A stretch of 63,428 nucleotides of DNA, the filler included, from Reclinomonas americana ATCC 50394 (Eukaryota), in the NCBI GenBank assembly GCA_048213135.1. It is 4 parts of 3 records of this genome, joined end to end, with 100 filler letters (N's around TTAATTAATTAA, not from the genome) between each part and the next. Parts side by side here need not be neighbours in the genome. Positions count along the whole stretch, not along the records: positions 1 to 21,789 come from PS015088.1; positions 21,890 to 50,155 come from PS015088.1; 2 more parts are not named here. One strand, written 5' to 3'. Below the pieces are notes generated by a model. It ran no database searches. It was not told the origin of the DNA and saw only the letters and a program-made list of their open reading frames with translations. A program made the translations under genes and the position numbers. Shown piece by piece: positions 16,738 through 50,155 of this stretch. Positions within the stretch are counted from its first letter, which is position 1, and each line of letters starts with the position of its first letter.

Positions 16738-19700
16738 TTAGAGAAGGGTGCACTTCTTGCCGTACTTCGTGTCAGAAAAGTCAGGATTCGATGAGCCGAT
16801 AATACGCACAAGCAAATCACTTTGCTCATGATGCTGATAGAAGTGAATAGATGAGTGAACAGCCGCAATTTCGAAGTCGCCCGCGGATTGCTGGCTTGAG
16901 AGCAAGTTCTCAAGATAAGCATGCGTGCTCGTACCCAGACGATCCCCAGTAGTAGTTGACCACAACAAAATCCCGTCATCGTCGTCAGCACTTACAATGT
17001 ACAGGCCATCGGGTGACACTGCCACTGCAGACACCCGACCCGTGTGGCCTATAAGTTGGTGCACTTCCTCCCCACTCGTTAAAGACCACACTCGCAACGT
17101 CGAGTCTTTACTGCCACTAACAATGCGCAGGCCATCGGGAGTGATAGCAATAGACAATACCTCGTCTGTGTGACCCACCAGCCGTCGCATTTCTTCTCCA
17201 CGAACCAGTGACCATACTCGTAGGGTATTATCTGCACTCCCACTCACGATGCTTTGACCATCGGCGGTCACGGCGATGGAATTCACCACACCATCATGTC
17301 CCTCAAACCGTCGAAATTCTTCTCCACTCGCCAGTGACCACACTCGAACTGACTTGTCACGACTGCCAGTCACAGCGTACTGGCCATTGGGGGTAATTGT
17401 AACACACGTCACCCACCCTGCGTGCCCCTGTAATAGTTCGACTTCTCCGCTCGCAAGCGTCCACGTTCGTAAGTCACTGATTGTTGACGCGAGGAACGTG
17501 GAGGAAAATGTGTCTGTCTGACTACCAGGTTCACTCGCCAAGTGCACTTCATCTGGACCCGTCGAGGACCACAGTCGCACCGACTGATCAAATGTGTCAC
17601 CGCTACTTACGATATGCTTGCCATTGAGAGCGATAGCGAGAGATGAAACCATTCCTGTGTGTCCCTCCAACCGTCGCACCTCCTCGCCACTTGCCACCGA
17701 CCACACGCGTACAGTTTTGTCAGCACTCCCACTCACAATGAACTGGCCATCGGCCGTCACTGCCACTGCAGACACGCCACCCGTGTGGCCATCCAGTCGG
17801 CGCACCTCCTCACCATTTGCCAGAGACCACACCCGTACAGTCTTGTCCCAACTGCCACTCACAATGTGCTGGCCATCTGGAGTGACAGCGATTGACAGCA
17901 CCCCCCTAGTGTGTCCCTCCATCCGGAGCACTTCTTCGCCCCCCGCCTGTGACCACACGCGCACAGTTCTGTCACGTCCACCGCTCACGACATGCTGGCC
18001 ATCGGGAGTGACAGCAACAGAAAACACTGCTTCCCTGTGCTTATTCAATCGTCGAACTTCTTTACCAGTAGCAACCGACCATTCTCGCACTGTGCTATCA
18101 AAACTCCCACTTACAACATGCTTACCATCAGGCGTGATGGCAACAGATGACACCTCACGACTGTGTCCCTCCAGTCGGCGCACCTCCTCGCCACTTGCCA
18201 TCGACCACACGCGTACAGTTTTGTCAGCACTCCCACTCACAATGAACTGACCATCGAGAGTGATGGCGACAGACAGTACAGCCCATGAGTGCCCCTCAAA
18301 ATATTGTACCTCTTCACCACTTACGGGTGACCACACTCTCACAGTGCCGTCATCGCTCCCGCTAACAATATGCTCACTGTTGGGTGTGAAAGCGATTGAG
18401 TATACACACCCACGAGAATACCCTCCCAGCAGCTTCCTCGGCCACTTCACACCCGTCATATCCGCCCCTCTGAAATCCGCCTCCCTCGCATACGCCATGC
18501 ACAAATTCACTCCCCGCAAATCCGCCCCCCTCCACACCGCCCTGTGCATCACTGCATCCCTCAAATCCGCACCCCTCACTCGCACACCCGACAGATCTCG
18601 CCCACTGAACGACACCTGCGCCGCACACAGCACCGTCGCCGCATTCGCGGCTGCCGTCACCACTCGCTCCTCGTCCACCTCCCGTGACACCTTAATCACC
18701 TTTCGCAGTCTCTTTTGCAAAACTGGAGATCGTCGCACCACCTCCGCCATCTGTTCCACCAACGATGGTCGATCGTTCAGCAGGCGCACAGCCAACACAT
18801 GCTGCTGCACATCTTGCAGCGTCAATTTCCTCTCCTCATCCCACGTCTCCCACGCAAACACATGCCGTGCCACACAGTGCTCCAACAACGATAGATGCAC
18901 GAATCCCCACTGCGTCGTCCCATACCGTCGCACAATCGGACAGCAAACTCGCACATGCTGGTTCTTGCGACCAAAGAATTTGTCAAACGGTCCCTCTTCC
19001 ACTCGTCGTCGAGGGTCGAGTGGTGCACCACCAAAGTCATCCTCCTCCTCACCATCATCTGACCGATTCTCCGTCACAGACACACGCACCACATTCCTCT
19101 CATGCATCAGCCGTGCCAGTCCCTCACAGAACGAGAGACACGTCTCCTCAGTCGGCACAAGTTCCGCACCGAGAGGCGTCTGTCTCTCCTGCTCCCTCGC
19201 AATCCACTGTCGAATGAATCGGTCGAATACATCGCGTCGAGTCAGTCGCTGCGCACCACTCGCCACCAATTGCGGCAGCACATGACCCACCACTACCAGC
19301 AGGAACGGATTCGATACCAGTGCATCCAGTCCATGCACACTCTTCAGTGCACGAATGTACTCCTCGGCAGTCGACCATCGCACTCCACCGTCATCACCAC
19401 CCATCCGCACCAATCGCTCAAAGTACTCCTCAATCTGCTCCTTGTTGAACGGTGTAATGTGTCGCTCCATCAGCTGTTGCATGCACAACTGTCTTCGTGC
19501 ATCCACCGGTGCAAAGAGCCGTCGATACTGCGTCACACCACCCAGTGCCGTCAGTGCGTAATCGCCTCGACAGGTGATAATCACCTTCACGTCACGACAC
19601 ACATCCAGCTGGTTCTTGACAAATAAATTCACACCACGGTACAGCTCGTCGTACCCGTCAAGCAACAACAGCAGTGGCTCCTCCTTCAATCGTCGTACAG

Positions 19701-28370: not shown

Positions 28371-31300
28371 TTATGTCATTGATTTCCACGACGACCGCTG
28401 CCAGGCTCGTTGTGCGGCTGTCGGGGCCTCCCGCTGGCGTGCAGAGCCGGGGCGACCGGTTGCAAAGGCGGGCGGTTTGGGAGTGGTTAGGGTGGGTGGC
28501 GCGCCGGGTCCGCCATTGGTGGTGCTGGAGGCAGAAGCGGCGGGAGGCGGATTCGCGGGGATTGGCAAATCGTCGCCGTCGCCGGTCTGCAAGCGGGAGG
28601 GGCGGTGGCGGCGGAAGGAGCGGGTGGAGGGTGGGGGGCTGGCGGGGGCTTTGGTGGGCATGCCCGGGGGTGGAGGTGGGTCGGTGGAGGCGGGCGCTGC
28701 GGGAAAGGAGAAGGGTGAGGAGGAGGGGAAGAGTGCGGGAGGGGAAGGAGGGAAAAGGGAGGGAGGGGGTAGGGAGCAGCGAGAGCAAGGGAGCAGCGAG
28801 AGCAAGGGAGCAGCGAGAGCAAGGGAGCAGCGAGAGAAGCAAGGAGCGGCGAGAGCAAGGGAGCGGCGAGAGCAAGGGAGCGGCGAGAGCAAGGGAGCGG
28901 CGAGAGCAAGGGAGCGGCGAGAGCAAGGGAGCGGCGAGAGCAACGGAGCAGCGAGAGAAAAGGAGAAGCGAGAGCAAGGGAGAAGGGCAGGCAGGATTCA
29001 GTGGCAGGGAGCGAGAGAGCAGGGAGTCAGGGAAGGAAACACAGGAAAGAGAGAAGGAATCGAGAGCAGAAAGCGCGAAAGTTGGGAGAAGAAGACAGTT
29101 ATTGATCATGAGAGTGCAACAGAAGAAACGCAGAACTTGCAAGATCGACATGGAGACAAACCTCTTCGCGGCGACAAAACAGTGCCAGCAGCACCAGGTG
29201 GCGGAACAGTGCTGAGAGCGGAGGAGAGCACTGAGGCCAGAGTGGACGACGTGGGCGAGTCGGTGACACCGGCGTGCGTGGATCCGGTCTCGGCAGCGGA
29301 GCGGGGTCGCAGTTTCGGCGCGAGTGCCTGCGCGGAAAGCGATTGTGAGAAGCACATCGCAGATAGAGGATTGCAGAAGCAGATATGCACCGTGCGTGAA
29401 GAGGGTCGAGCGGTGGAGGAGCTTGACTGAGGGCGTGCAGACTTGGGCAGTGCCAGCTTTGGCACCGTCACAATGTTGCCGCCGTGTTTCGTGTCACACG
29501 AGATGCAGCGGTCGCCTGCGAAAAGAAATCAGGCACAAACTAACAAGGAGACGCGCTAATCACCAGACGAACTTGGCGGTGATCCGTGTCGATGTTCCGG
29601 CGGGGCAGGGCTTATGCCGCGTGTGGAAAGGGCCATCGGCAGCTCCTCCCTATACCCAGCAGAGATGAGGATAAAAAACATGAACCAGTACCGTGACCAA
29701 GACGAAGCTCACCGATCGACTTTGGTCCACAGCGCACGCTGCACGTCCCACCAATCGGACTTGTTGGCCAGCTGCTCACTCATGTTGTTGCGCAGCATGT
29801 AGATGCACTTCATGCACTCGTCGAGTTCGGCCTGCGCAAACACAGGTGAGGGATCGATCAAGTGCAGAGACGGCGACTCTCTCTCTCCACGCACCACTCG
29901 CTGGTGCGTCTCCGTGACAAGCGCCGCTTCCAGTGAACGGGTGAATTCTCCGAGTGCGGCCACTTCGCCCTTGCTGGCCTTGTAATTGACTTGCTGCACG
30001 GCATCCTCGACGCGCACAAGCATCTCGTTGGTGTTGCTCTTCATCTCGCCAATCAGAGTTAGCGCGGACTCGACGGCCTTGTCCTGGCCATCGAGGCGTG
30101 CTTCCCAGGCCTGCGGGAAGGAGAGGGAAGGGGGGACAAATGAGAGGGAGGAGAGGGAGAAGGGGAGGGGGGAGGAAGACGGGGAGGGGGAATGTGAGGG
30201 GGGAACAGGGAAGGGGGGATGGAGCACGGCGAGAGACAACGAGTACGGCGAGAGACAACGACGAGCACGGCGAGAGACAACGACGAGCACGGCGAGAGAC
30301 AACGACGAGCACGGCGAGAGATAACGACGAGCACAGAGCGAGAGACAACGAGCACAGCGAGAGAGATAACGAGCACAGCGAGAGAGATAACGAGCACAGC
30401 GCGAGAGAGATAACGAGCACAGCGAGAGAGACAATGAGCACAGCGAGAGAGAACGAGCACAGCGAGAGAGACAACGAGCACAGCGAGAGAGACAACGAGC
30501 ACAGCGAGAGAGACAACGAGCACAGCGAGAGAGACAACGAGCACAGCGAGAGAGACAACGAGCACAGCGAGAGAGACAATGAGCACAGCGAGAGAGACAA
30601 TGACCACAGCGAGAGAGACAATGACCACAGCGAGAGAGACAATGACCACAGCGATAGAGACATCGAGCACAAAGCCTTGAAGAGGATACCCTCATTATCC
30701 CTCCACTACTCACATCAAAATCAGGTAAGTCAATCGTCGGCTCTGGCGGTGCTTCACATTGCACACAGGCGTCCCATCGCAGCGGAACCTCGTCATCGTC
30801 ATCTTCCTCGACCTCATTCTGCTGCTGTGGCTGTGCGACCTGTGACTGTTGTGTCGGAGCGGCTGCCGAGGCGGATGGATCGACAACCGGCACTGGTTTC
30901 TGTTTGCGCTTGCCGGAACCTGCAGCAGCACTGGCGGCAGCGGCGGCCTGCGTGAAAGTGTGAGCAGGGCGACTCACAACACTTGCAAGTGAGACCGATC
31001 AAAGGCAGACCTCGGCAGCGGCGGTAACCTCCTTTCGCATTTGATTGAGGGCATTGTCGAGCTCTGAGCGAGTTGGGCGCTCCTTGAGCTGCTGGCGAAG
31101 ACCTGGAAGAGCCTCCACCGACTCGGCGGCGTCGCGCAGACCCACGGCTGCCGTCTGTCCGACGCGCGCCACGGCCTGATCAGTGAGTTCCACCATGCCC
31201 TTCACGCCCTTGATGGAGGCTTGCAGCAGTCGTTCGCTCTCTGTGAGGTTGGCGAGGCGTGAGCGACGTCGGTGAAAAGGAAAGTATCGTAGAGTGCGTA

Positions 31301-32018
31301 TCACACCAATGCGTGTCGCCTCATGCTCATTCTGCTTGCGCGTCAACTCGTCGAGTCGCTCCTTCTCGTGGCGCAGACGCCATTCGAGTTCCTCCACAGT
31401 CTTTACACGGCGTTCCAGTTCTTGTGCGGATCTGGGAGGCGAGATGAGAGTGAGATATCTAAAGCGACGGGACGAGAGGTGGAGCAAGTACGCACCCCAT
31501 GATGCGATCGTTGATGCCTCGCTGTGCGTTCAAGTCTCCCTCGCGCTGCCGACCCAAGCTCTCCAGGGTCGACGGTACGGACAGCAACGGGTTGAGAAGA
31601 TCTGTCAGCTCCTTGCGCATCTTGACTGTGAAGATTGTGAGTGACATGATGTGTAAGAAGAGCAGCGGGTGTGCGCCACAGCACCTGTCTCCGTCAGCGA
31701 GTGCTTGATTTGCTCGCCGCGCTGCATCACCAGGTCGCGCACTTCAATGTTCTCCGTTTGCATCTTCTTCATGTCGCGCTCCACGCGGGTTTTCACTTCC
31801 TGTTGGGAAGAGGTGAGGGTGAGGACATAGCATAGCAATTATCAGGGTGGGAGATCGAGGAACGCAACATCCAGCTGCGCTTGGAAGCTGGTGAGATTGC
31901 GCAAGTCGCCCTCGAGGCGCTCCAGACGGTTAAAGGTCTGTTCTCGGCGCTCCAGGAGTGCGAGGATGGTGTCCATGCGGCGGTCGACCTCGGCTTTGTT
32001 GGCTTTTTGGTCGAGGAT
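28371..32018 (-). CDS. Multi-exon coiled-coil protein with KAxKxE-type repeats and a CISCD motif (QRICH2/DUF4795-like), 5' end not located
   Basis: About 12 frame-compatible exons: LDQKANKAEV, YKASKGEV, LANKSDW, LWTKVDREEL, DRCISCD, then a Pro/Ser-rich tail. The family call is from motif recall only. Confidence 0.62.
28770..28985. repeat. 17-bp minisatellite (gcgagagcaagggagc(a/g)) in an intron
   Basis: About 10 tandem units directly visible. Confidence 0.92.
30221..30670. repeat. 21-bp minisatellite (gagcacagcgagagagacaac) in an intron
   Basis: About 20 tandem units with a gradient of variants along the array. Confidence 0.93.
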
Positions 32019-32089
32019 CTGAGGGAGGGAGAAGGGAATCAAGGGGAAGGGGGAAGGGGGGAGGGGAAGGGCGGCGAGATTAGTAGAGG

Positions 32090-32265
32090 TCACAACTTAG
32101 AAGAGAGAAGGGGAAAGAAAGTCGACGGGAGTGGAAGGGCGTCGACATTAGAAGAGGCAACAACTTAGACGAGAGAAGGGGAAAGAAAGTCGAAGGGAGT
32201 GGAAGGGCGTCGACATTAGAAGAGGCAACAACTTAGACGAGAGAAGGGGAAAGAAAGTCGAAGAC
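32090..32265. repeat. 69-bp tandem repeat, about 2.5 copies
   Basis: caacttaga.gagagaaggggaaagaaagtcga recurs at about 32093, 32161 and 32230. Confidence 0.85.
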
Positions 32266-33356: not shown

Positions 33357-35182
33357 NNNNNNNNNNNNNNNNNNNNNNNNNNNNNNNNNNNNNNNNNNNN
33401 NNNNNNNNNNNNNNNNNNNNNNNNNNNNNNNNNNNNNNNNNNNNNNNNNNNNNNNNNNNNNNNNNNNNNNNNNNNNNNNNNNNNNNNNNNNNNNNNNNNN
33501 NNNNNNNNNNNNNNNNNNNNNNNNNNNNNNNNNNNNNNNNNNNNNNNNNNNNNNNNNNNNNNNNNNNNNNNNNNNNNNNNNNNNNNNNNNNNNNNNNNNN
33601 NNNNNNNNNNNNNNNNNNNNNNNNNNNNNNNNNNNNNNNNNNNNNNNNNNNNNNNNNNNNNNNNNNNNNNNNNNNNNNNNNNNNNNNNNNNNNNNNNNNN
33701 NNNNNNNNNNNNNNNNNNNNNNNNNNNNNNNNNNNNNNNNNNNNNNNNNNNNNNNNNNNNNNNNNNNNNNNNNNNNNNNNNNNNNNNNNNNNNNNNNNNN
33801 NNNNNNNNNNNNNNNNNNNNNNNNNNNNNNNNNNNNNNNNNNNNNNNNNNNNNNNNNNNNNNNNNNNNNNNNNNNNNNNNNNNNNNNNNNNNNNNNNNNN
33901 NNNNNNNNNNNNNNNNNNNNNNNNNNNNNNNNNNNNNNNNNNNNNNNNNNNNNNNNNNNNNNNNNNNNNNNNNNNNNNNNNNNNNNNNNNNNNNNNNNNN
34001 NNNNNNNNNNNNNNNNNNNNNNNNNNNNNNNNNNNNNNNNNNNNNNNNNNNNNNNNNNNNNNNNNNNNNNNNNNNNNNNNNNNNNNNNNNNNNNNNNNNN
34101 NNNNNNNNNNNNNNNNNNNNNNNNNNNNNNNNNNNNNNNNNNNNNNNNNNNNNNNNNNNNNNNNNNNNNNNNNNNNNNNNNNNNNNNNNNNNNNNNNNNN
34201 NNNNNNNNNNNNNNNNNNNNNNNNNNNNNNNNNNNNNNNNNNNNNNNNNNNNNNNNNNNNNNNNNNNNNNNNNNNNNNNNNNNNNNNNNNNNNNAAAATT
34301 GAGAGGATGGGGGTGCGTGGGTGAGTGGCGAGTAGCAAAAGGCTGATGCAAGGTGATATTCATTTTCAGCGAGTTTTTGCAGAGAGGAAGAAAGAAAAAC
34401 AAAAACCAAATTCAAAAAATACGTCAAATTTCCACAAATCCCTTTGCCGACAATTAACTTGGCACACCTGTAATGTGAAACCACACAATTGCTCACACCA
34501 TCTCTTCTCCAACAACAAAATCTAAAAAAATCTTTGTCTGTAAACAAAAAAATTGGGCGCAAGAGAAACCACGGCGATTTTGCTATTCCCAATACGCAAT
34601 ACAGCTTCATGATGATTACCATCTACAACAACAACTTTACTAATCCAAACAGGAACACAGCTGCAAAATGATCACCATCTTGAGTGAGCACCAGAAACTC
34701 AGACATCACGAAAAAGAGCGAGAAAAAATGAATCGAACAAGAGGCTGCTTTGCGCTATAGGGAGAGCAAGATTATCGAGTCTGCTAATTCGAAACCCTGC
34801 GCAAGAACGTGTGCTACCGTTAACCCTCAAAGGAATCGGGAAACGGTGCTGCATGTAGCACAAGCAACAAAATAGAAATTGACGTCGCAACTTCGAATTC
34901 ATAACGATGGCAGACGAACTCTGTTCTCGGCTTTGCTAATTCCAAAAAGTCCAACATAGCAACGAGGACTCCACGTGTCTTGCGCCCCAGAAGCGCTGCG
35001 GATGACGCCGGCGCAACACGAAACATCGAATTTGAATTTCTCGAGCACTGCATGCCTCGTGATCGCATTCTTCGCCGTTCTGCACCTTCCCTGCACATGC
35101 ATACTCTCAGCCCAACCCAATCCACCTTCTCCCCTCGTGCAACTCACGTCGTCCTGCACACTTCGATATCGAACACCATTTC

Positions 35183-40202
<5,020 letters not shown>

Positions 40203-40306
40203 CTCTTCTTCTTCTCTGGAATCTCACCCCACCTAATTAATTTGCTGTAAAACCTCCCTGTTATCACATTATTTGGCATTGCTCCTTTTCGTGTTCTGTA
40301 TTCTTC

Positions 40307-43300
40307 TCAGAGCAGAGTACAGGCGCGCGATTGCACAGATGAGGACGATTCGTCTGGCACCGGTGGTGCCGACGACAGCCGTCCCCCTTGCTTTCGTGAC
40401 GGCGATGCGGTCGCCGATAATGACAAGGGCGTGCCATCGTCGCCACTGCCGTCGCCCACGAAGAGCGGAGCCGTGGCGAGGAGCGGGGACGGCGGCGGCG
40501 GAGGCACATCCACAGACATTGCTGTCGGTAATGTGGCCGACACGACACCGCTACCACTGCCAATGTTCGAGTAGTGCGTCGCTGCAAAGGAGGACGGGCT
40601 AGCGGGAGGCACCGGTTGCGGTGAAAACTCCTGCAGCACGTTCTCCTTGATGGCCAGCGACATGGAGATGCGAATGGTGCGCTCGAGGATCTCGTTGATG
40701 TTGGCGCCAGTGAGGCAGGAGGAGAGGAAAAAGTCGGCGAATTCCTCGTGGCAGCGGCGCTGCGGGCAAGAAGGCAAAAAGGGAGGGGAGGGAGGGAAGG
40801 GGAGAGAGAGGGAAGGGAGAGAGAGGTGGTAATGTTAATCAAATGGCACGCAAATTGATAAGATGCACGGGAGAGAGGGAAAGGAGCAGAGACGACGAGA
40901 CAAAGGTGTGAGTGAGCAACACACACAAACAAACAAACAAACAACAAACAAACAAACAAACAGCACTCTCCTGCCCTCCTTTCAACACTCGTGCATGTTT
41001 CTCTCTCCTTAAACCCCTTTCCTATCCCTTTCCTTTCCTTTCCCACTCCTTTCCCTTCCCCTTTCCTCACCAGCACATCCACAATCTTATGCTCGCTCAG
41101 CGGCTCCATCTCCGACGAGTGCGACGGCTGCGCCGCCAAACTGTTGAACATCGAGCCATCGTCGGAGCCGGAGTACGAGGTGCCGTGCGTGAGGGAGGTG
41201 CCGACTTCACGTGGACTGCCGGCGTCGTCACTCGAGTGTGAAGGACCAGCCGCTCCACCACCGTCGTCGTCTCCCAGAGTCACTGCAACGAATAAAAACA
41301 CTCAGTCTTCCGGCTTGTATAATCAGCGTTGTGAAATAGGGAACGCACAATCTGGTGGCGGTGGCGGTGGAATACCGTCACCCTGTGCATCGGCGGCTGG
41401 CGGCACATACCGGTGTGCTTGCCGGCTGCGACCTGCGCGAGTCGGCACAGGCAGGCCTAATATGGCGGCCAGCTCCTCTTCCGAGAGACCCACACATGCT
41501 TCCTCGCCGTACCCTGCGTGGAGCAGAGAGGTGAGGAAACATTAAGCAAGGTGAACCACCAAAGGACCGCCATCTCACCCGTCTTGTGATTGAGTTTTTG
41601 CATGCGGGCAAAGGTGAAGCGGTGCACGACATGCGCCTCGCCCAGGCGGTCGGTCTTGTTGCCGAGGAAAATGACGCGGGCGTAGTTTGACAGCACACCG
41701 GCGTCCTGCATCAGACGAATCTCCTCCAGCCACCGGTCAAACGCTTTCTCTTGTGTCGCGGGGTCATTGGCGTCAAACATGATGATTACGGCCTGCGCAT
41801 TGCGATACAGAGCCGGAGTCATTTGTGAGCGGCAGTCTTCGAGGCCGCCGGTGCCGTACTGCGGGGTGGGGGAAGGGAGGGAGGGTGAGGGAGAGGAAGG
41901 AGGAGAGGGAGAGGGAGAGAGAGGGAGAGGGAGAAGGGTGAGGGAGGGAGGGAGAGGGAGAGGGAGAGGGAGTGTGGAGTGGAGACGGAGAGAGAGAAAG
42001 ACACACACACACACAAAGAGAGAGAGAGAGAGAACATAGGCATAACAACGCACACACACAAGCACAGGAAGAGGGAAAAGCATGAACAAGCACATGGGTA
42101 CGCACCAGCGTGACGTTGACCTTGACGCCGCCGACATCGTATTTCTTCGAGACACACGAGGAGATGCTGGCGTTGTGGACGAGGTGATTTCCGTACTGTG
42201 GGGAGGGTGGTGTGAGGAAGGGAGAAGGGAGAGGGAGAAGGAAGGGAGGGGGAGAGCATGGAAGGAGAGGGGAAAAGATATCCGAACCACGGAGAAAGCA
42301 ATCTTAGAAGAGAAGGCAGCGCAAAGATGCTTGACGAAAGGAAGATGCAAGGCAATGAAACAGTGAGTGACAGAGAGGGAGACGGGGAGAATGAAGGGCA
42401 CGGATGAGTCAGAACGAGGAGGAGAGTGAACGAAGAGAAGGAAGACCCAGGGATGCTGGACGGAAGGACGATGCGCACAAGGGAAAGAGAGAGAGAAAGA
42501 CTGAGGACACAGTGAGAAAATGAAAAAGCTGTGCACAGATTAGCACAAAGAACGGTTAGAGAGAATGAGAAGTTCGCGACAGCATGAGAGGAAGATAACA
42601 GAATTGCCGTTGGACGTTTACATGCAGAGAGGCTGGGAAAGGAAGAGCAATACACGCATCAGCTGAAAGAAACGAGGAGGCAGGGAGAGACGGGGGGAGG
42701 GGGAAGAAGTGCAAATGAGCTGTAACGATGGTCGGCAAACACGCCATTCGCGAAAGAGCAGCAACGAGAGATGAGAGGGCTGGAGGGAAACATAAGGCAT
42801 CAAATGGAGAGGGTGCGATACAGAGAGAGAGAGAGAGAGACAGCCGACGGGAGGGGCGAGAGAACGAACAACCCAACCCGCATGAGTATGCTGCGCTACC
42901 TTCGCCCGCGCCAAGAACGATCGCTTGCCCACTCCGCGCTCGCCGACCACCGAAAACTTCATGGCCACCTGGAAGTCGCGCCCGTGTCTCGTTTGAATCC
43001 TGCGCATTCACATAAGCGTACAGCGACACCGCACCAATCTTCTTCCACCACCAAACCTCTTCAGCAGAAACACGTTGCGGTACCGCCGCTTGTACTTCTT
43101 GATGGGCGTAAACACGAAACTGGCCGCCGACGCATCACCAGCACCGGCCACCAGCGCCAACGCCGTCCCACTGACATCCACGGCCGCTCCGCTCGCCGCC
43201 GTCCCCATCGACACGGGTCCCTTGGAGGGCGCGGCGCTCACGCGGCCGGCCAGCTCATCAATCTCCGTGTCGAGATTGAAGTCGAGAATGAAGGCATTGG

Positions 43301-43504
43301 TCAGCAGGAAGGCGTAGTCGCGCTCAAAGAGAATGCGCCAGATTTTGAAGTGTGGCAGCAGCGAGAAGCAGTGGCGAAAGTAGCGAGACTGGGTGGGAGA
43401 CAGAAGAATAAGTGAGTGAGCGAGGAGGAGGAGGTGCGTGAAGGAGGAAGACGAACCGTTTGCTCCAAGTGGACCACGTCGAGCCAGTCGCTGTAGCAGA
43501 GGAT
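40307..43504 (-). CDS. F-box-like N-terminus fused to an atypical Rab/Rho-like small GTPase with CaaX end; 5' exon unresolved
   Basis: ILCYSDWLDVVHLEQT|SRYF...IWRILFERDY (F-box C-terminal half), KFSVVGERGVGKRS (G1), VTL|YGTGGLE (degenerate G3), LYRNAQAVIIMFD, FLGNKTD (G4), FLSSCLTGANINE (G5) and terminal CTLL-stop. Confidence 0.75.
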
Positions 43505-45064
43505 CTGCGGGGGCGAGAGGAAGAGGAGTGAGTTGGAGGGCAATGAAGAAGAACGTTGGGAGGGATGCGAAGGGCATGAAAATAGAGGATAACGAAGAAG
43601 TGGAGAGGGCGTGAGACGGAAGGAGAAGAGACAGCAGGAGGGAAAGAGGGGCAGGAGGTCAAGGAGAAGAAATAGAAGAAGCCAAGCGATCGGGGAGCGA
43701 GCGGATGACGAAGGAGCAGAAGCACAAGAGACTAGACGAGGAATGCGACTGTGGATAAGAGAGAAGGAGGGAAGGAGACAACACAAGAGGAGAAGATGGA
43801 GCGGGGGATGGGAGAGAATGAGAGTGAGACTGAGAAAGTAAGGATAAGAAAGGAAGGAAAGAGGAAACGGAGAGGAGGAAAGGAGAGAAGGAGTGGAGAG
43901 AAGGAAAGGAGAGAAGGGAAGGAAAGGAAGAGAAAGAAATCAGGGAAGCAAGGGAGAGAAGGAAAGGAAGGGAAGGGAAGGAATGGAGAGAAGGAATGGA
44001 GAGAAGGAAAGCAGGGAAGGAAAGGAGAAAAGGAAAGGAGAGAAGGGGACAAGGGGCCAAGTGAGAAGGACAAGAAGAAAGAACAAAGAGAGTGTGAGAC
44101 AGACGGCATGAGGCGGAAGAGAGGAAGCTGAACAGCAGTGAAAGAATAGCGCGAACAGGAGAAGTGAGAGAGTGAGGAGAACAACAGAGAGAGCAAGGCG
44201 CACCCTCTCTTCCTCTCTTCCTTCTCTCTCTCTCTCTCTCACCGCGTGTCTGATTGTACGATTTCAACACAACGCGCGCACTCTCTCCCACACACTAAGA
44301 GAACACACACTCTCTTCCCCTCACACGCACTCACACCAGAGAGAGACACAACACACACAGAGAAAAGCGCGAAAGAGCGTGCCACATATTCCCTCTCTCT
44401 CACACTCTCTCTCACACACACTCAACTCTCAACAACACTTCCGGAGGCAAATTAATGAGCGCAGACGCAGTGGGCGCATACGACAAACGCTCTCTTGAAT
44501 ACTGTTGCTGAAGTTGTTGAGAAGAAGAAGACACATGTGAACTTCGCGCTAAGAGAAAAGAAGACAAAGGGGTAAGCAGTGAGAGCGAGACAACGTGTAT
44601 GAGTGACGCACGTGCTTACCTGACATTGCGCGCGCTCTCTGTGAGTGTGTTTTTTTCGTGAATGACGAAGCGACGTCGGCGGTTGTCGGCGCAGGACAAG
44701 CTGTTAATTGGCGTGGTTTGTGCGTCGGTGTGTGCGGGGTCGGCCGGTGGAGCTGCACGTATGCTGCATGCGAGTGTGCTGATGCAAGTGGCGAGATGAT
44801 TATGGAAAGCAAACGTCGATGTCCTGCGAATTAAAGTTGGTCTTTTGCTTCGTCGTTTCCTGCAACGAAGCAGTGAGAGAGTTAGCTGATTGCAGCTGTG
44901 TACATAATGCAAACGAGTGTGAAAGTGCAGGCGGGGGGATAGTCATGGAAAAAACGTCGATGTCCTGCGCACCTATTTCGTTCTGTCAAACAAACAACGA
45001 AGGTCGGTGTGAGAGATAGTTGAGTGTAAACATCAACCAGCGCATAAGAACCTGTGTGAAGAGA

Positions 45065-48000
45065 ATGTCGGTGAGTTGCATTTGCGCTTGCCACTCTCTC
45101 TCTCTCTCTCTCCTCATTCACATGCACAGTTCTCTGTGTGCGTGAGTGTTGCGCACGACGCATCGCTCTTTGTAACAGTCGAAGGCATGTCGTCGACCGC
45201 ATCTACTCTCGCCGACTTGCTCCGCGAGGCCACTCGCTTGTTGCGTGAGAAGAGTGGAGATGGGGGGATGGAGATTGTCGGCGTGGAGAAGCCGATGCCT
45301 CTGAAGATTGCCAAGGTTGGCGGCCTGGCACTGGAAGACCTGGGCATTGACTCGTCGACGCATCTTGTGGTGCATGTGATTGGCGGAGAGCGGCTGGCGC
45401 AACGCGATCCACGAAGTCTGTCGGTGGTGCGTGTCTTCCACGCTTGAAGGAGTCTCCTCTGCGTCCCTCCCGTGCTCATCTCTCTCTCACACACACTCCT
45501 TTTCTTCATTATGCCACGAAGTTTGTCTATTCTTCTGTATCTCTCTCACACACTCGCTCAAAATCACTCTCATTTCCTCTGTCTCTTACATACTTGCTCA
45601 TACTCTCTCCCTCCCTCTCCTCCCTCCCTCCCTCTCCTCCTTCTCCTCCTTCCCCTCTCCTTCCCCTCTCCCCCTCTCCTTCCCCTTCCTTCCCCTCTCT
45701 TGCCACTCACATTCCTCGTATGTGTGGCAGTTCTCCGTGCGCGTCAGTGCGGCGCATGATTCATCTCTGTCGGTGGCGGTGGAAGGCATGTCCTCCACGT
45801 CCACTCTCGCTGCCTTGCTGGGCGAGGCCACACACATGCTGCGCGAGAAGAGTGGGGACGAGGAGATGGAGATTGTCGGGGTGGAGAAGCCGATGGAGTT
45901 CGACTTGGAAGATGCGAATGTGGTGATGCTGCGCAGTCTGGGCATCAAATCCAGCACGTCATTGGTTGTTCGGGTGTCCATGTCGCATGTGGCTTCTGCT
46001 GCTGCCGCAGATGCAACAAAAAGGTGATTTTGAGTGCTAAGCATGTGATCCGGATGTGAACTCGTGCGCTCACCATTGTCGTCACCAGTGTGTCGGCACT
46101 GTCAGAACGGTGTGTTGTCGACCATTTTCCACGCTCCCTGATGTCGTTCTGTCCGACTCACTTGCAACTGTGCGAAGGAGGATTTTCTCGCAGCGCATCG
46201 ACATGGCGTGGGAGGCCGTCATCGACGCCGTGCGTGTGCGCTGTCGGCATGTGTTGGCACAGTTTAGTCGCGATCATCCCGATTTTGATGTGCGGGCGTG
46301 GACTCCCGATGTGTGGACACCGCCGCTGTGCCTGCATCCGTCGGTGATCAAGGCGTGGTATGATCGTCACGCACCACTCGCCCCTGGTCGCGTCAAGCTG
46401 TTTGCGCAGCAGCAGCAGCACATGCTCGACTGGAAGTCTGCGTTCGATGCCGACCCAGCCACCGATCCCTGTTGTGACGCATTCGACGTGACGGCCTTGG
46501 TGTCGATCTTGCTGTTTGGTGGCCTCGTGCCGGACGATGACGGTCGCAAGAAGCTGCTGATCGATGATGTCGATGAGCGCAAGGCGGTCGAACAGGTGCG
46601 TGAGGTGCGCAACGACTTGGCGCACGGCTCGTTGGAGTGGACCGCGGCTAGCGTGCAAGTGAACGTTGGTGATGGCGGTCTGTTTCTGACTCTTGTTGGG
46701 CGACTTCGCATTCCTGCTGATACGATGAGCGACTTGGCGAGTCGAATACGGGAGGCGCGCCACCTCAACTTCAGCGTCAGTACTTTTGAGGAGCGACTGA
46801 ATCGGCTTGCTCTGCGTGAGATGGTCTATTATCACGAGGACGAGAGTGTGCGCAAGGACATGCAGATGTATGTACCACTGCAGTGCTCGCGTGATCGTGA
46901 CGTCTCGTCGAGAGAGAGGATGACGGATCTGTTGACGGAGGTGGATGCTTTCCTCTCCGACCCCAATACCACCCAGCGTGTGCTGGTGCTGTTTGGCAAC
47001 AGTGGTGCCGGCAAGACCACTACCATGTCGATGTTGGCTGAGCGAGCATGGCGACAGTGGCAGACGAGGGAGAGCAGGCGAGTGCCTGTGCGTGTGCCTC
47101 TTGGTGCACTGCGCAATGCCGATGAGCGGCTGTTTGAGGAGGCACTGGAGCGACTGTCACCCGAATTGGGATTTTGTGAGACAGATGTGCGACGGTTAAA
47201 GGAGGAACCGCTGCTGTTATTGCTTGACGGGTACGACGAGCTGTATCGTGGTGTGAATCTGTATGTTAAGAACCAGCTGGATGTGTGTCGCGATGTGAAG
47301 GTGATTATCACCTGTCGTGGCGATTACGCACTGACGGCACTGGGTGGAGTCACGCAATATCGACGGTACTTTGCACCGGTCGATGCACGAGGACAGTTGT
47401 GCATGCAGCAGTTGACGGAGCGACACATTGCGCCGTTCAACAAGGAGCAGATTGAGCAGTACTTCGAGAGGCTCGTGCAAATGGGTGGAGATGACGGTGA
47501 GGTGCGATGGTTGACTGCCGCTGAATACATTCGTGCACTGAAGAGTGTACAAGGATTGGATGCTTTTGTGTCGAACCCATTCCTGCTGACAGTGGTGGCT
47601 CGTGTGTTGCCGCAATTGGTGGCGAGTGGTGTGCAGCGACCGACTCGGCGTGATGTGTTTGACCGATTCATTCGACAGTGGATTGTGAGGGAGCAGGAGA
47701 GGCAGACGCGTCTTGCTGCAGAGCGTGTGCCGAGTGAGGAGACGTGTCTCTCGTTCTGTGAGGGACTTGCACGGCTGATGCATGAGAGGAATATGGTGCG
47801 TGTGTCTGTGATGGAGAGTCGATCAGGAGATGGTGGAGAGGAGGACGATGACTTTGGTGGTGCACCGCTCGGTCGTCGACGAGTGGAAGACGGTCCATGG
47901 GACAAGTTTCTCGGTCACAAGAATCAGCATGTGCGAGTGTGCTGTCCGATTGTGCGACGATATGCGACGACACAGTGGGGATTCGTACATCTGTCGTTGC

Positions 48001-50155
48001 TGGAGCACTGTGTGGCACGGCATGTGTTTGCGTGGGAGACGTGGGAAGAGGAGAGGAAATTGACGCTGCAGGATGTGCAGCAGCATGTGTTGGGTGTGCG
48101 ACTGCTGAACGACAGACCATCGATGGTGGAGCAGATGGCCGAGGTGGTTCGACGGTCTCCACGACTGCAAGCGAGGTTGTGGGAGGTGATTGAGCTGTCA
48201 CGTGCGGTGGATGAGGAGCGAGTGGTGACGGCATCGGCGAATGCAGCGACAGTGTTGTGTGTGGCACAAGTATCGTTCAGCGGACGAGATCTGTCGGGTG
48301 TGCGAGTGAGAGGTGCGGATCTGAGGGACGCGGTGATGCACAGGGCGGTGTGGAGAGGAGCGGATTTGCGAGAGGTGAATATGTGCATGGCATATGCGAG
48401 GGAGGCGGATTTCCGGGGGGCGGATGTAACCGGGGTGAAGTGGCCGAGGAAGCCTCTGGCGGGACATTCAGCTGGAGTGACATTTGTTTCCGTTGCGCTT
48501 GACGGGCGGCATGCTGCGAGTGGAAGTGAGGACAACACTGTGCGGGTGTGGTCGCTAGAGAGTGGAGAAGAATTGCGATGTCTTCAGGGGCACACTGAAA
48601 CGGTCACTTCTGTGGCGTTTACTCCCGATGGTCAGCACGTTGTGAGCGCGAGTGAGGACAAGACTGTTCGGGTGTGGTCCGTGGAGAGTGGAGAGGAAGT
48701 GCTACGTTTGGAGGGACACACTGCTTCTGTGTGCTCTGTTGTCGTCACTCCCAATGGCCAGTACATCGTGAGTGGGAGTGCCGACAAGTCAGTACGAATT
48801 TGGTCTCTACGGAGTGGAGAAGAGGTGCGACGGTTGGAGGGACATNNNNNNNNNNNNNNNNNNNNNNNNNNNNNNNNNNNNNNNNNNNNNNNNNNNNNNN
48901 NNNNNNNNNNNNNNNNNNNNNNNNNNNNNNNNNNNNNNNNNNNNNNNNNNNNNNNNNNNNNNNNNNNNNNNNNNNNNNNNNNNNNNNNNNNNNNNNNNNN
49001 NNNNNNNNNNNNNNNNNNNNNNNNNNNNNNNNNNNNNNNNNNNNNNNNNNNNNNNNNNNNNNNNNNNNNNNNNNNNNNNNNNNNNNNNNNNNNNNNNNNN
49101 NNNNNNNNNNNNNNNNNNNNNNNNNNNNNNNNNNNNNNNNNNNNNNNNNNNNNNNNNNNNNNNNNNNNNNNNNNNNNNNNNNNNNNNNNNNNNNNNNNNN
49201 NNNNNNNNNNNNNNNNNNNNNNNNNNNNNNNNNNNNNNNNNNNNNNNNNNNNNNNNNNNNNNNNNNNNNNNNNNNNNNNNNNNNNNNNNNNNNNNNNNNN
49301 NNNNNNNNNNNNNNNNNNNNNNNNNNNNNNNNNNNNNNNNNNNNNNNNNNNNNNNNNNNNNNNNNNNNNNNNNNNNNNNNNNNNNNNNNNNNNNNNNNNN
49401 NNNNNNNNNNNNNNNNNNNNNNNNNNNNNNNNNNNNNNNNNNNNNNNNNNNNNNNNNNNNNNNNNNNNNNNNNNNNNNNNNNNNNNNNNNNNNNNNNNNN
49501 NNNNNNNNNNNNNNNNNNNNNNNNNNNNNNNNNNNNNNNNNNNNNNNNNNNNNGCCAAAGAAGTAACGTCTGTTGCTACAACGCCCGATGGCCATCACAT
49601 TCTGAGTGGCAGTTACGACCTGACTGTGCGTATGTGGTCCGTTGCGAGTGGGGAGGAAGTGCGACGATTTGTGGGACACAATGACCCGGTGTCTTCTGTT
49701 GCTGTCACTCCAGATGGTCAGTACACTGTTAGTGGCAGTTGGGACGGCTCAGTGCGAGTGTGGTCACTGGCGAGTGGAGAAGAAGTGCGACGATTGGATG
49801 GCCACACACGACCGGTGCAATCCGTCGCCACCACGCCCGACGGACAGCACATCTTGAGTGGGAGCGAAGACAGTACTGTGCGGGTATGGTCGGCTACGAG
49901 TGGAGAAGAAGTGCGACGATTGGAGGGACACTCTCGCTGGGTATCTTCTGTTGCTGTCACTCCCGACGGTCAGTACGTTGTGAGCGGGAGTTGGGACAAG
50001 ACCGTGCGAGTGTGGTCCATGGCAACTGGGGAAGAGGTGCGACGGTTGGATGGACACTCTGGAAGGGTTATGTCTGTTGCAATCACTCTCGATGGTCAGT
50101 ATATTGTGAGTGGAAGTGCGGACAATACAGTTCGCGTGTGGACTGTGGCGAGTGG
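45065..50155 (+). CDS. NLR-like protein: 2x ubiquitin-like - HEPN - NACHT - pentapeptide - WD40 (3' truncated)
   Basis: Micro-exon ATG TCG (45065-45070), duplicated Ubl-like exons 45130-45426 and 45731-46023, then a large exon from 46178. That exon has FDVTAL...VREVRNDLAH (HEPN RxxxxH at 46608-46625), GNSGAGKT, LLLLDGYDE, NPFLL, FVHLSLLE, pentapeptide and WD40 repeats. It runs into a gap and the scaffold end. Confidence 0.86.

What the first reader, a model, noticed from the sequence alone, without database searches (positions are those of the whole stretch)
16738..50155. NLR-like receptor family with swapped effectors: caspase versus Ubl-HEPN RNase on a shared NACHT-pentapeptide-WD40 core
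Seen: the genes at 21383-16738(-) and 45065-50155(+), on different scaffolds, are unrelated until homology starts abruptly inside an exon at GACGAGAGTGTGCGCAAGGACATGCAGATGTATGT (20043 minus; 46839 plus). They are then highly similar through the NACHT and pentapeptide regions and diverge again in the WD40s. One carries a C14 caspase-like domain, the other two Ubl-like domains plus a HEPN domain. More paralog pieces lie at 50256-55112, so three of four scaffolds carry the family. Established: STAND NTPases with variable effectors are innate-immune or cell-death receptors (fungal HET-E/NWD, bacterial Avs/NACHT), and caspase and HEPN are known effector types. Inference: an expanding, recombining innate-immune repertoire in this protist, with recent effector exchange and at least two outputs (proteolysis and RNA cleavage).
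Basis: partly seen in the sequence, partly recalled or inferred. Interest (0 to 1): 0.86.

Follow-up and report, generated by a model that had tools for sequence, protein, structure and literature searches.

The report
NACHT-WD40 paralogs with different effector heads
Several copies of a eukaryotic receptor-type gene share one ATPase-plus-sensor core but carry either a caspase-like protease or a probable RNase at the front, a pattern already familiar from fungal and animal immune-type gene families.

Summary
The sequence observation holds. The 35-mer occurs exactly twice, at 20009-20043(-) and 46839-46873(+). From there the two genes are 83.9% identical over 1948 nt (NACHT, helical region, pentapeptide repeats), then drop to about 65-70% in the WD40 repeats. 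Their N-termini show no similarity.

- **Gene A:** it fits an intact 7-exon, 1373-aa model. A Peptidase_C14 hit passes Pfam's cut-off and a His/Cys dyad is plausible.
- **Gene B:** it has two about 82-aa repeats, then an RNDLAH (Rx4H) region in the same open frame as the NACHT.
- **HEPN:** the label rests only on sub-threshold hits to three HEPN profiles and on protein-language-model neighbours.
- **Ubl:** the fold is unverified, and both AlphaFold models failed.
- **Scaffold 3:** it carries a second B-type N-terminus and a third core.

The exchange is not recent. Core dS is about 0.40-0.47 for all three pairs, with dN/dS about 0.16. Both homology boundaries lie at or near predicted intron acceptors, which suggests exon-level module exchange.

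Remote relatives of the core (27-30% identity) carry helical, kinase, TIR or caspase heads. HEPN-NACHT fusions and N-terminus-swapping NACHT-WD families are already published. This is a real feature and a new member of a known kind. The immune role is inferred.

The parts
16738..21383 (-). Gene A, whole model. It has 7 exons: 21383-21352, 21226-21123, 20987-20767, 20702-20587, 20514-20414, 20350-20153 and 20087-16738. The 6 GT-AG introns are 63-135 nt and the product is 1373 aa.
   Evidence: A script built the model from the window. It is in frame throughout, with a single stop at the end. GC1/2/3 of the N-terminal exons is 0.64/0.38/0.60, against 0.64/0.46/0.57 for exon 7. There is no RNA evidence.
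20153..21226 (-). Caspase-like (Peptidase_C14) head of gene A, exons 2-6. His96 lies in SGHG and Cys153 in NCCRA.
   Evidence: Pfam PF00656 gives 31.2 bits against a cut-off of 21.4 on ORF 20746-21114. PDB phmmer aligns the SGHG stretch with the SHG of caspase-4/-11/-6 at E 0.36-1.3. MAFFT with the caspase heads of P0034 and P0030 lines up beta1, His and Cys. That pairwise similarity is not significant.
20009..20043 (-). The 35-mer at which high identity with gene B begins. It lies 15 codons inside exon 7, whose predicted acceptor is at 20088/20087.
19411..19905 (-). NACHT NTPase of gene A. Walker A GNSGAGKTT is at 19861-19887 and Walker B LLLLLDGYDE at 19645-19674.
   Evidence: Pfam PF05729 gives 37.6 bits against a cut-off of 26.7.
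18436..18615 (-). Pentapeptide-repeat segment of gene A.
   Evidence: Pfam PF00805 gives 38.2 bits against a cut-off of 20.2. NCBIfam pentapeptide models hit the same stretch.
17029..18423 (-). WD40 array of gene A: 11 units of about 42 aa, two of them degenerate.
   Evidence: Pfam WD40 gives 376.7 bits over 11 stretches. The units are listed.
45065..50155 (+). Gene B. Exon 1 is 45065-45070, exon 2 is 45130-45375, and exon 3 is 45731-46024. Exon 4 runs from 46089 or 46194 to the scaffold end. An N gap at 48846-49553 lies inside the WD40 array.
   Evidence: The sequence was read. The open frame 46041-48845 was translated. The frame continues at 49554-50155.
45130..46024 (+). Two tandem repeat modules of about 82 aa, one per exon.
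   Evidence: The copies are 66.7% identical with dN 0.29 and dS 1.2. Pfam finds no family at E<=10. The AF2 model has pLDDT 42.5. ESM Atlas gives ubiquitin-family clusters at 0.87-0.89 only.
46194..46838 (+). HEPN-like head of gene B, in the same open frame as the NACHT. The RNDLAH (Rx4H) motif is at 46608-46625.
   Evidence: Pfam HEPN_Swt1 gives E 0.087-0.16 and 12.7-13.6 bits against a cut-off of 27.5. PADLOC CARF_HEPN (E 0.0065) and RTasHEPN (E 0.034) hit the same stretch. ESM Atlas neighbours score 0.91-0.94, some with HEPN_DZIP3 or HEPN_Swt1 members. There were 0 hits among 1.84 billion representatives. The AF2 model has pLDDT 39.
46839..48452 (+). Shared core of gene B. NACHT is at 46977-47474, with Walker A at 46995-47021 and Walker B at 47211-47240. 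Pentapeptide repeats lie at about 48294-48437 and the core ends at KWPRK, 48438-48452.
   Evidence: NACHT gives 38.7 bits. Pentapeptide gives 32.9 bits.
50256..50984 (-). Gene C1, a second B-type N-terminus. A divergent repeat-module exon lies at 50984-50673. The head exon at 50498-50256 runs off the scaffold start.
   Evidence: tblastn gives 76.9% over 78 aa to gene B's head. Against B, dS is 0.386 and dN 0.11 over 71 codons, while the module exon is only 24-26% identical to B's.
51012..55112 (+). Gene C2, a third core copy. It runs from the late NACHT-associated region through the pentapeptide repeats, WD40 and the stop at 55110-55112. Its 5' part is lost in the 25-N gap at 50986-51010, and further gaps lie at 53083-53447 and 53837-54623.
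   Evidence: tblastn gives 87.6% over 170 aa to the A core. The alignment is and the stop.
53448..53836 (-). A WD40-repeat piece that reads only on the minus strand, between two N gaps. It is either a mis-oriented contig or part of another gene.

Best explanation
These are paralogous genes of a eukaryotic STAND (NACHT-clade) NTPase family with NOD-like-receptor logic. A C-terminal WD40 propeller array acts as the variable sensor. Its variability is concentrated at a few positions per repeat. A NACHT NTPase, a helical region and a short pentapeptide beta-helix form the conserved switch and oligomerisation core. The N-terminus is an exchangeable output module: a caspase-family cysteine protease in gene A, and two small repeat modules followed by a probable HEPN-type RNase in genes B and C1.

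The likely mechanism is inferred from Apaf-1, NLRC4, bacterial Avs/bNACHT and RNase L/Ire1, and is not shown here. Ligand binding to the WD40s would release NACHT oligomerisation. That would bring the heads together and switch on enzymes that need dimerisation, namely the caspase or the HEPN RNase. The outcome would be cell death or defence.

The family diversified by module exchange at exon boundaries, not recently. All shared modules differ by dS of about 0.4 and are under purifying selection.
For: - **Architecture:** NACHT, Pentapeptide and WD40 all pass Pfam cut-offs in A and B. Walker A and Walker B motifs are intact.
- **Caspase head:** C14 passes the cut-off on A's exon 3. A full in-frame GT-AG model gives 1373 aa. 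The codon-position GC pattern of the head exons matches exon 7.
- **Gene B fusion:** B's head and NACHT lie in one uninterrupted open frame, 46041-48845, so that fusion needs no splicing.
- **Exon order:** the order of repeat-module exon, intron and head exon recurs in C1. B against C1 gives dN/dS of about 0.28, and B's two modules about 0.24, so these exons are coding.
- **Core constraint:** over 536 codons dS is 0.40, dN 0.064 and the ratio 0.16. A-C2 and B-C2 have dS 0.46-0.47 over 168 codons.
- **Sensor variability:** among 31 in-register 42-aa WD40 units, entropy peaks at positions 7 (13 residue types), 23 (12) and 5 (11). Scaffold positions are nearly invariant.
- **HEPN leads:** three different HEPN profiles hit the RNDLAH stretch. 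ESM neighbours at 0.91-0.94 include HEPN_DZIP3 and HEPN_Swt1 clusters.
- **Family-wide modularity:** 28 of the 49 hits at E<=0.001 align over more than 300 residues of the 540-aa core at 20-33% identity. Among these hits the heads are Arm-like/helical, protein kinase (P0004), TIR (P0047) or Peptidase_C14 (P0030, P0034).
- **Boundaries:** A/B homology fades within 15 codons of A's last acceptor. B/C1 homology starts at B's candidate acceptor, 46187-46194.
Against: - There is no expression or splicing evidence. The spliced caspase head could not be folded or searched as one protein.
- The Cys-bearing exon has no profile or PDB hit. Its alignment to other caspase heads lacks statistical support.
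- HEPN never reaches a curated threshold: 13.6 bits against 27.5. No relative of the head was found among 1.84 billion representatives and the model was unusable.
- WD40 synonymous sites are saturated, so diversifying selection cannot be told from relaxed constraint.
- Repeats show no concerted evolution: mean nucleotide identity is 0.646 within genes and 0.654 between genes.
- Nothing here tests ligand, oligomerisation, protease or RNase activity, or any role in immunity.
- Scaffold 3 is visibly mis-scaffolded.
Confidence: 0.65

Rival explanations
1. The molecules are the same, but they serve self/non-self (allorecognition, incompatibility) or another signalling role instead of anti-pathogen immunity. 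The fungal HET-E/HET-D/HET-R NACHT-WD proteins are the model for this.
For: The closest published analogue of a shared NACHT-WD core with different N-termini and hypervariable WD positions is the Podospora HNWD family, whose characterised members are incompatibility genes (PMC4986451, passages seen). Variability is concentrated at a few WD40 positions.
Against: Nothing in the window separates the two roles. The repeats lack the high internal conservation and concerted evolution described for HNWD. Caspase and HEPN outputs fit either role.
Confidence: 0.15
2. The heads were not swapped. Instead, anciently distinct genes had their cores made alike by interlocus gene conversion, and the sharp boundary is the edge of a conversion tract.
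For: Identity steps from 100% over 35 nt to about 44-52% immediately upstream. That is lower than the roughly 69% expected for neutral sequence of the same age. The 35-nt exact run sits at the very edge and is the second longest of the alignment, after 46 and before 33. Window-by-window dS varies from 0.12 to 0.66.
Against: Three core pairs are almost equidistant (dS 0.45-0.47 over the shared 168 codons). The B/C1 head exon has the same dS of 0.39. This fits one burst better than ongoing conversion. With only three copies the two histories cannot be separated, and both yield the same modular family.
Confidence: 0.25
3. Gene A is a gene-model artefact. The caspase exons would belong to a separate upstream gene, and the NACHT gene would start at an ATG inside the 35-mer.
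For: There is no RNA evidence. The first Met codons of the long open frame lie in the 35-mer, within KDMQMYV. One donor in my model is the weak GTTCGT.
Against: Six GT-AG introns of 63-135 nt give one frame with no stop. The last intron is 65 nt, with a GTGAGC donor and a TTGCAG acceptor. In gene B the head runs into the same core with no stop or intron. Caspase-NACHT-pentapeptide(-WD40) fusions exist elsewhere, in P0030 and P0034.
Confidence: 0.08
4. Assembly chimera: the junctions were created by mis-joining repeats.
For: The window comes from a gapped draft. Scaffold 3 has a head-to-head arrangement across a 25-N gap and an inverted WD40 piece.
Against: The nearest N runs to A's junction are at 13601-13778 and at the scaffold-end linker from 21790, about 1.7 kb away. 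B's junction lies about 2.0 kb from the nearest N run, at 48846. The cores beyond the junctions are distinct copies, about 12-16% diverged. A mis-join at the 35-mer would still attach each head to a family core.
Confidence: 0.04

Closest known systems
Podospora anserina HNWD/NWD family (HET-E, HET-D, HET-R and paralogs), fungal NLR-like NACHT-WD40 proteins
   Same: These are paralogs with a shared NACHT-WD core and different N-terminal domains. Their WD repeats are variable at a few positions (PMC4986451, passages). The same pattern appears here.
   Different: The fungal family has no pentapeptide segment, and its heads are HET and others instead of caspase or HEPN-like. Its repeats are highly similar to each other and evolve in concert, whereas here mean repeat identity is 0.65 with no within-gene excess. 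The cores are only remotely related.
DZIP3/hRUL138-like HEPN-NACHT proteins of cnidarians and bivalves, with lineage-specific expansions also reported in Capsaspora
   Same: They have an N-terminal HEPN with an Rx4H motif, usually RN, in front of a NACHT, in expanded multi-copy families. Sources are PMC3710099 Table 1, PMC9646362 and PMC8260672. Gene B has RNDLAH, and its ESM neighbours are cnidarian and mollusc clusters, some carrying PF18738.
   Different: Gene B's head does not reach any HEPN profile threshold and has no detectable sequence relatives. It is preceded by two extra repeat modules and followed by pentapeptide repeats plus WD40. LRR is the typical C-terminal repeat in the oyster proteins, although TPR or WD40 also occur there.
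NACHT-pentapeptide-WD40 proteins of Mortierellomycotina fungi and of bacteria (for example P0007 Glomeribacter, P0008 Linnemannia, P0013 Magnetobacterium, P0047 Frankia)
   Same: The core architecture and order are the same, alignable over 95-99% of the 540-aa core at 27-30% identity for the best hits. The heads are variable: helical/Arm-like, kinase, TIR, caspase. The Mortierellomycetes and endobacterial NLR cluster is noted in PMC9815663.
   Different: The window's pair sits alone on a long branch (length 2.04) outside the 19-row fungal/endobacterial clade in a quick tree. The HEPN-like and repeat-module heads were not seen among these hits.
Caspase-family heads on STAND/WD40 proteins: P0034 (C14-NACHT-pentapeptide-WD40), P0030 (C14-NACHT-pentapeptide), cyanobacterial metacaspases with WD40, and fungal NLRs with CHAT heads
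   Same: A caspase-fold protease is fused directly to a STAND NTPase and repeats. Supporting literature: PMC2853523 and PMC3501461 (search listing only), and PMC9815663 passages.
   Different: Gene A's caspase domain is not detectably related to those of P0034 or P0030 beyond the shared motifs. Its weak PDB matches are to animal caspases-4/-11/-6. The fusion probably arose independently.
Apaf-1 apoptosome, NLRC4/NLRP inflammasomes, bacterial Avs and bNACHT systems
   Same: The logic is that of a repeat sensor, a STAND switch and a proximity-activated effector. This comparison is from recalled knowledge and from PMC7159879 passages.
   Different: In the animal systems the caspase is recruited through CARD or PYD adaptors, whereas here it is part of the same polypeptide. 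These proteins are not NLRs in the strict NACHT-LRR sense (definition in PMC3879445).

Membership tests
NACHT NTPase (Pfam PF05729, STAND class) | Profile match above Pfam's gathering score | tested here: met
   A scores 37.6 bits and B 38.3-38.7 bits, against a cut-off of 26.7.
NACHT NTPase (Pfam PF05729, STAND class) | Intact Walker A (GxxxxGK[ST]) and Walker B (hhhhD[GAS]xDE). The motif definitions are recalled. | tested here: met
   GNSGAGKTT and LLLLLDGYDE are present in both A and B.
NLR-like tripartite STAND receptor | N-terminal output domain, central NOD, C-terminal repeat array in one polypeptide | tested here: met
   Gene B has this in one open frame. Gene A has it through the in-frame exon model.
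NLR in the strict sense (NACHT plus LRR) | C-terminal leucine-rich repeats (definition in PMC3879445) | tested here: not met
   The repeats are WD40, at 376.7 bits. No LRR family appeared among the 25 of 57 Pfam families that were shown.
Peptidase_C14 (caspase, metacaspase, orthocaspase) | Profile match above Pfam's gathering score | tested here: met
   PF00656 gives 31.2 bits against 21.4, E 2.3e-07, covering profile positions 29-99 of 233 on the exon-3 ORF only. Exons 2, 4-5 and 6 give 0 families at E<=10.
Peptidase_C14 (caspase, metacaspase, orthocaspase) | Catalytic His (xGHG/SHG) and Cys after a hydrophobic strand | tested here: inconclusive
   His96 aligns with the SHG of caspase-4 at E 0.36. 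Cys153 (NCCRA) aligns with DCC/DAC of P0034 and P0030 in MAFFT only. phmmer is not significant and the Cys exon has no PDB hit.
Peptidase_C14 (caspase, metacaspase, orthocaspase) | Caspase/hemoglobinase fold | not testable with these tools
   The head is spread over 5 exons. Only unspliced window translations can be folded.
HEPN superfamily (DZIP3/Swt1-like) | Rx4-6H motif (PMC3710099, PMC9646362 passages) | tested here: met
   RNDLAH lies at 46608-46625.
HEPN superfamily (DZIP3/Swt1-like) | Profile match above a curated threshold | tested here: not met
   HEPN_Swt1 gives 12.7-13.6 bits against 27.5. PADLOC CARF_HEPN gives E 0.0065 and RTasHEPN E 0.034, both over short stretches only. PF18738 was never reported.
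HEPN superfamily (DZIP3/Swt1-like) | All-alpha HEPN fold | tested here: inconclusive
   The AF2 model from a 2-row alignment has mean pLDDT 39.1, so no fold search was made.
Ubiquitin-like beta-grasp | Profile match or beta-grasp fold | tested here: inconclusive
   Pfam finds 0 families at E<=10 for 3 of 3 modules. The PDB profile search gave no ubiquitin-like chain among 3 weak hits. The AF2 model has pLDDT 42.5, with only a beta-beta-alpha start. ESM Atlas ubiquitin clusters score 0.87-0.89, below the 0.9 lead level.
Pentapeptide repeat (PF00805) | Profile match above the gathering score | tested here: met
   A scores 38.2 bits and B 32.9 bits, against 20.2.
HNWD-type fungal family | Highly similar WD repeats evolving in concert within and between paralogs (PMC4986451) | tested here: not met
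   Mean repeat nucleotide identity is 0.646 within genes (143 pairs) and 0.654 between genes (322 pairs), with a maximum of 0.80.

The most novel reading that the evidence does not exclude
In a eukaryote whose NACHT-pentapeptide-WD40 lineage stands apart from the fungal and bacterial ones, one conserved sensor-switch chassis would be wired directly to two different executioner enzymes. The first is a caspase fused in cis, which would amount to a single-chain apoptosome or inflammasome without adaptor domains. The second is an orphan HEPN-like RNase, preceded by tandem ubiquitin-like modules that might gate or target it. The heads would be exchanged as exons at intron boundaries. This would be a natural, minimal system for asking how a STAND oligomer activates interchangeable effectors. 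If the host is close to animals, it could also show how caspases first came under NOD control.
Probability: 0.25. Interest if true: 0.65.

Novelty: new member of a known kind. Interest (0 to 1): 0.42.

Why it matters
The finding shows, within one short stretch of a draft genome, the modular logic of NOD-like receptors. The core is about 88% identical at nucleotide level in aligned codons and under purifying selection. The sensor repeats are variable, and the enzymatic heads are unrelated and joined at or near intron boundaries.

The pair of genes gives a ready-made comparison for testing whether STAND-driven proximity is enough to activate either a caspase or a HEPN-type RNase. It also adds a eukaryotic lineage to the catalogue of direct caspase-NACHT fusions.

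It does not change the current picture. Head-swapping NACHT-WD families, HEPN-NACHT expansions and caspase-STAND fusions are all in print.

Tried and rejected
- **Whole genome:** none is held, so the genome-wide catalogue of cores and heads was impossible.
- **Sequencing runs:** none was listed and no RNA holder was listed.
- **B's head against 1.84 billion representatives (phmmer):** 0 hits at E<=0.001.
- **Word-index search with caspase exon 3, 'longer':** 12 candidates, none at E<=0.01.
- **First core search with half orphan head:** only 4 hits. It was superseded.
- **AF2 of repeat module 2 (pLDDT 42.5) and of the HEPN-like head (pLDDT 39.1):** too poor to use, so no fold search was run.
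- **PDB searches:** the head gave 1 irrelevant hit. The Cys exon gave 0 hits. The repeat-module profile gave 3 irrelevant hits.
- **NCBIfam:** nothing for either head.
- **Spliced A head against P0034/P0030 heads (phmmer):** not significant.
- **First upstream-similarity test:** it used free end gaps and was uninformative. It was replaced by the in-register count.
- **Per-site dN against dS in WD40 units:** synonymous sites are saturated (pS about 0.5-0.8), so there is no verdict on positive selection.
- **Careful tree:** it did not finish, and only the quick tree is reported.
- **Complex prediction:** not run, because the monomer models were too poor for a dimer test to be informative.
- **Organism identity:** not determined.
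- **Relic heads:** tblastn over the window found no remnant of a HEPN-like or repeat module near gene A, nor of a caspase near gene B, at E<=1e-3.

Full report
**What the window is.** The 63,428 bases are four scaffolds of a gapped draft eukaryotic assembly, joined by N44-TTAATTAATTAA-N44 linkers. They span 1-21789, 21890-50155, 50256-61231 and 61332-63428, and contain many internal N runs. No whole genome is held, no sequencing run was listed, and earlier notes were closed. Everything below therefore rests on the window and on public protein collections.

**Checking the observation.**
- The quoted 35-mer occurs exactly twice, at 20009-20043(-) and 46839-46873(+). None of 100 shuffles gave any match.
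- blastn of the window on itself gives one dominant pair, 18103-20043(-) against 46839-48779(+). It is 83.9% identical over 1948 nt and begins exactly at the 35-mer.
- The long open frames 16738-20148(-) and 46041-48845(+) share 547 of 682 aligned residues.
- Past the motif KWPRK, identity drops to about 0.5-0.7 in 40-codon windows.
- The N-terminal pieces of the two genes find only themselves, plus scaffold 3 for gene B, by tblastn at E<=1e-3.
- Scaffold 3 holds four further pieces. Three of the four scaffolds therefore carry the family.

**Gene A.**
- Reading the minus strand, I built a model by script. It has seven exons: 21383-21352, 21226-21123, 20987-20767, 20702-20587, 20514-20414, 20350-20153 and 20087-16738. 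The six GT-AG introns are 63-135 nt, and the single frame of 1373 codons ends at the stop at 16738-16740.
- One donor (GTTCGT) is weak. The others are GTGAGT-like.
- The GC pattern by codon position in the N-terminal exons (0.64/0.38/0.60) matches exon 7 (0.64/0.46/0.57). The introns are 0.49 GC.
- Pfam Peptidase_C14 passes its cut-off on the exon-3 ORF, at 31.2 against 21.4 bits.
- The same exon aligns weakly with caspase-4, -11 and -6 chains at the catalytic SHG, with E 0.36-1.3.
- In a MAFFT alignment with the caspase heads of two remote family members (P0034, P0030), the first strand, the GHG histidine (His96), the Cys (Cys153 in NCCRA) and the following strand all line up.
- That similarity has no statistical support, and the Cys exon alone hits nothing.
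- The caspase call is therefore sound for the family. The dyad is plausible, and the fold is untested because a spliced protein cannot be submitted.

**Gene B.**
- From, the model starts at the ATG at 45065 and has a 6-nt first exon. Two exons (45130-45375 and 45731-46024) each encode one copy of a module of about 82 aa. The copies are 66.7% identical, with dN 0.29 and dS 1.2.
- A long exon starts at 46089 or 46194 and runs to the scaffold end. An N gap lies inside its WD40 array.
- The head region 46194-46838 lies in the same uninterrupted open frame as the NACHT. This fusion therefore does not depend on splicing.
- The head carries RNDLAH at 46608-46625, which is a canonical Rx4H with Asn after the Arg.
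- Three different HEPN profiles hit this stretch, all below threshold. They are Pfam HEPN_Swt1 (E 0.087-0.16, 12.7-13.6 against 27.5 bits), PADLOC CARF_HEPN (E 0.0065) and PADLOC RTasHEPN (E 0.034).
- The ESM Atlas neighbours score 0.91-0.94 and share 168-196 features. They are cnidarian and mollusc clusters in which 11-38% of members carry HEPN_DZIP3, and a mostly bacterial cluster with 20% HEPN_Swt1. The query's recognition value of 2261 is just under the tool's 2300 mark.
- Against this, phmmer over 1.84 billion representatives found nothing. The AF2 model had pLDDT 39. I therefore call the head 'probably HEPN, unproven'.
- The Ubl label is weaker still. There is no Pfam family at E<=10 and no PDB profile hit of that kind. 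The AF2 model has pLDDT 42.5 with only a beta-beta-alpha start. ESM ubiquitin clusters score 0.87-0.89.

**The shared core.**
- NACHT passes Pfam's cut-off at 37.6-38.7 bits against 26.7, Pentapeptide at 32.9-38.2 against 20.2, and WD40 at 376.7 bits. Walker A and Walker B motifs are intact.
- Over 536 core codons, A and B differ by dS 0.40 and dN 0.064, a ratio of 0.16. Over the 168 codons shared with the third copy, the three pairs have dS 0.45-0.47.
- The core is conserved by selection. The copies are roughly equidistant and not young.

**WD40 sensor.**
- I extracted 33 units and dropped 2 that were out of register, leaving 31 units of 42 aa.
- Scaffold positions are almost invariant. Entropy peaks at positions 7 (13 residue types), 23 (12), 5 (11), then 25, 42, 4, 3, 13 and 17.
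- From recalled knowledge of WD40 structure, positions 5, 7 and 23 correspond to the top-face contact positions. This was not tested here.
- Synonymous sites between repeats are saturated, so positive selection cannot be shown.
- Repeats are no more alike within a gene (0.646) than between genes (0.654). This is unlike the concerted evolution described for the Podospora family.

**Scaffold 3.**
- On the minus strand, an exon at 50984-50673 encodes a divergent copy of the repeat module, only 24-26% identical to B's. An intron follows, and then an exon at 50498-50256 that is 77-80% identical to B's head and runs off the scaffold. I call this gene C1. It repeats B's exon order, which supports B's gene model.
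- On the plus strand after a 25-N gap, gene C2 starts in mid-core at 51012. It continues through pentapeptide and WD40 repeats to a stop at 55110-55112.
- A WD40 piece at 53448-53836 reads only on the minus strand, between two gaps.
- The head-to-head layout, with about 520 bp between C1 and C2, cannot hold C2's missing 5' half. This scaffold is therefore unreliable in detail.

**Where the boundaries lie.**
- Upstream of the 35-mer, in-register identity is 14 of 27 nt (19 of 5000 shuffles reach this) and 20 of 45 nt (26 of 5000). It fades by 90 nt.
- Gene A's last exon is predicted to start 44 nt upstream of the 35-mer.
- Between B and C1, DNA homology starts at 46187. That is 7 nt before B's candidate acceptor at 46193/46194. 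The module exons upstream are almost unrelated, although the head exon has dS of only 0.39.
- Both discontinuities thus sit at or within 15 codons of predicted intron acceptors. I read this as exon-level module exchange.
- This is an inference from three or four copies. Conversion tracts ending there would look the same.

**Relatives.**
- A search with the 540-aa core gave 49 proteins at E<=0.001 among 7999 scored candidates.
- 28 of them align over more than 300 core residues at 20-33% identity. Most are from Mortierellomycotina fungi (Linnemannia, Mortierella, Entomortierella, Haplosporangium). Others are from a Glomeribacter, Magnetobacterium, Frankia and unnamed metagenome records. The remainder match only the pentapeptide part.
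- Their heads differ: long Arm-like/helical, protein kinase (P0004), TIR (P0047) and Peptidase_C14 (P0030, P0034). P0034 has the same order as gene A.
- In a quick tree of 30 rows (the careful search did not finish), A and B form an isolated pair on a branch of length 2.04, outside the 19-row fungal/endobacterial clade.

**Literature** (passages found by term search, not whole papers).
- PMC3710099 Table 1 lists DZIP3/hRUL138 HEPN domains fused to NACHT and other domains, with lineage-specific expansions in Nematostella, oyster and Capsaspora.
- PMC9646362 reports more than 50 oyster NACHT proteins with N-terminal DZIP3-like HEPN, with Rx4H the commonest motif.
- PMC8260672 reports 17-83 HEPN-NACHT proteins in anthozoans.
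- PMC4986451 describes the Podospora NACHT-WD family with differing N-termini and hypervariable repeats.
- PMC9815663 lists CHAT among fungal NLR heads and notes a Mortierellomycetes/Mycoavidus NLR cluster.
- PMC3879445 found NACHT with WD40, ANK or TPR in several non-animal eukaryotes and reserves 'NLR' for NACHT-LRR.
- PMC7159879 gives the bacterial context.
- My four searches turned up no description of a repeat-module, HEPN-like, NACHT, pentapeptide, WD40 order. Supplements were not read.

**Verdict.** It is best read as a NOD-like, STAND-type receptor family with exchangeable enzymatic heads. The caspase head is supported, the HEPN head is probable, and the Ubl modules are unverified. The exchange is old (dS about 0.4), not recent, and the immune role is an inference by analogy. 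It is a new member of a known kind and of moderate interest.

Noticed in passing
window 21790-21889, 50156-50255, 61232-61331: The window is not one locus. Four scaffolds are joined by N44-TTAATTAATTAA-N44 linkers, so distances and orientations between them carry no meaning.
   Followed up: yes
window 53448-53836: A WD40-repeat segment is open only on the minus strand, between two N gaps and inside an otherwise plus-strand WD40 array. It is probably a mis-oriented contig in a collapsed repeat region.
   Followed up: partly
window 15192-16688 (+): A glutathionylspermidine synthase-like ORF (Pfam GSP_synth, 408 bits) ends about 50 nt from gene A's stop codon, tail to tail.
   Followed up: no
window 9742-12207 (-), repeats at 10777-11378: This ORF carries a glycosyl hydrolase family 79 N-terminal domain (290 bits). 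It contains direct repeats offset by about 95 nt, 86-88% identical.
   Followed up: no
window 59133-59396: A tandem repeat with a period of about 102 nt has copies that are 99% identical and abuts a 20-N gap. It may be an assembly artefact or a very young duplication.
   Followed up: no
window 522-2363 (+), 25670-27478 (+), 41460-42539 (-), 61360-62442 (+): Other gene fragments are a DEAD_2/XPD-like helicase, an S-adenosylhomocysteine hydrolase split by introns or gaps, a Ras/Roc-like GTPase and a UCH ubiquitin hydrolase. No gasdermin-like or other cell-death gene appeared among the 22 ORFs scanned.
   Followed up: partly
window 45376-45730: Gene B's second intron (355 nt) is dominated by CT-rich low-complexity sequence. 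Similar (CT)n/(GA)n tracts flank many exons and scaffold ends in the window.
   Followed up: no
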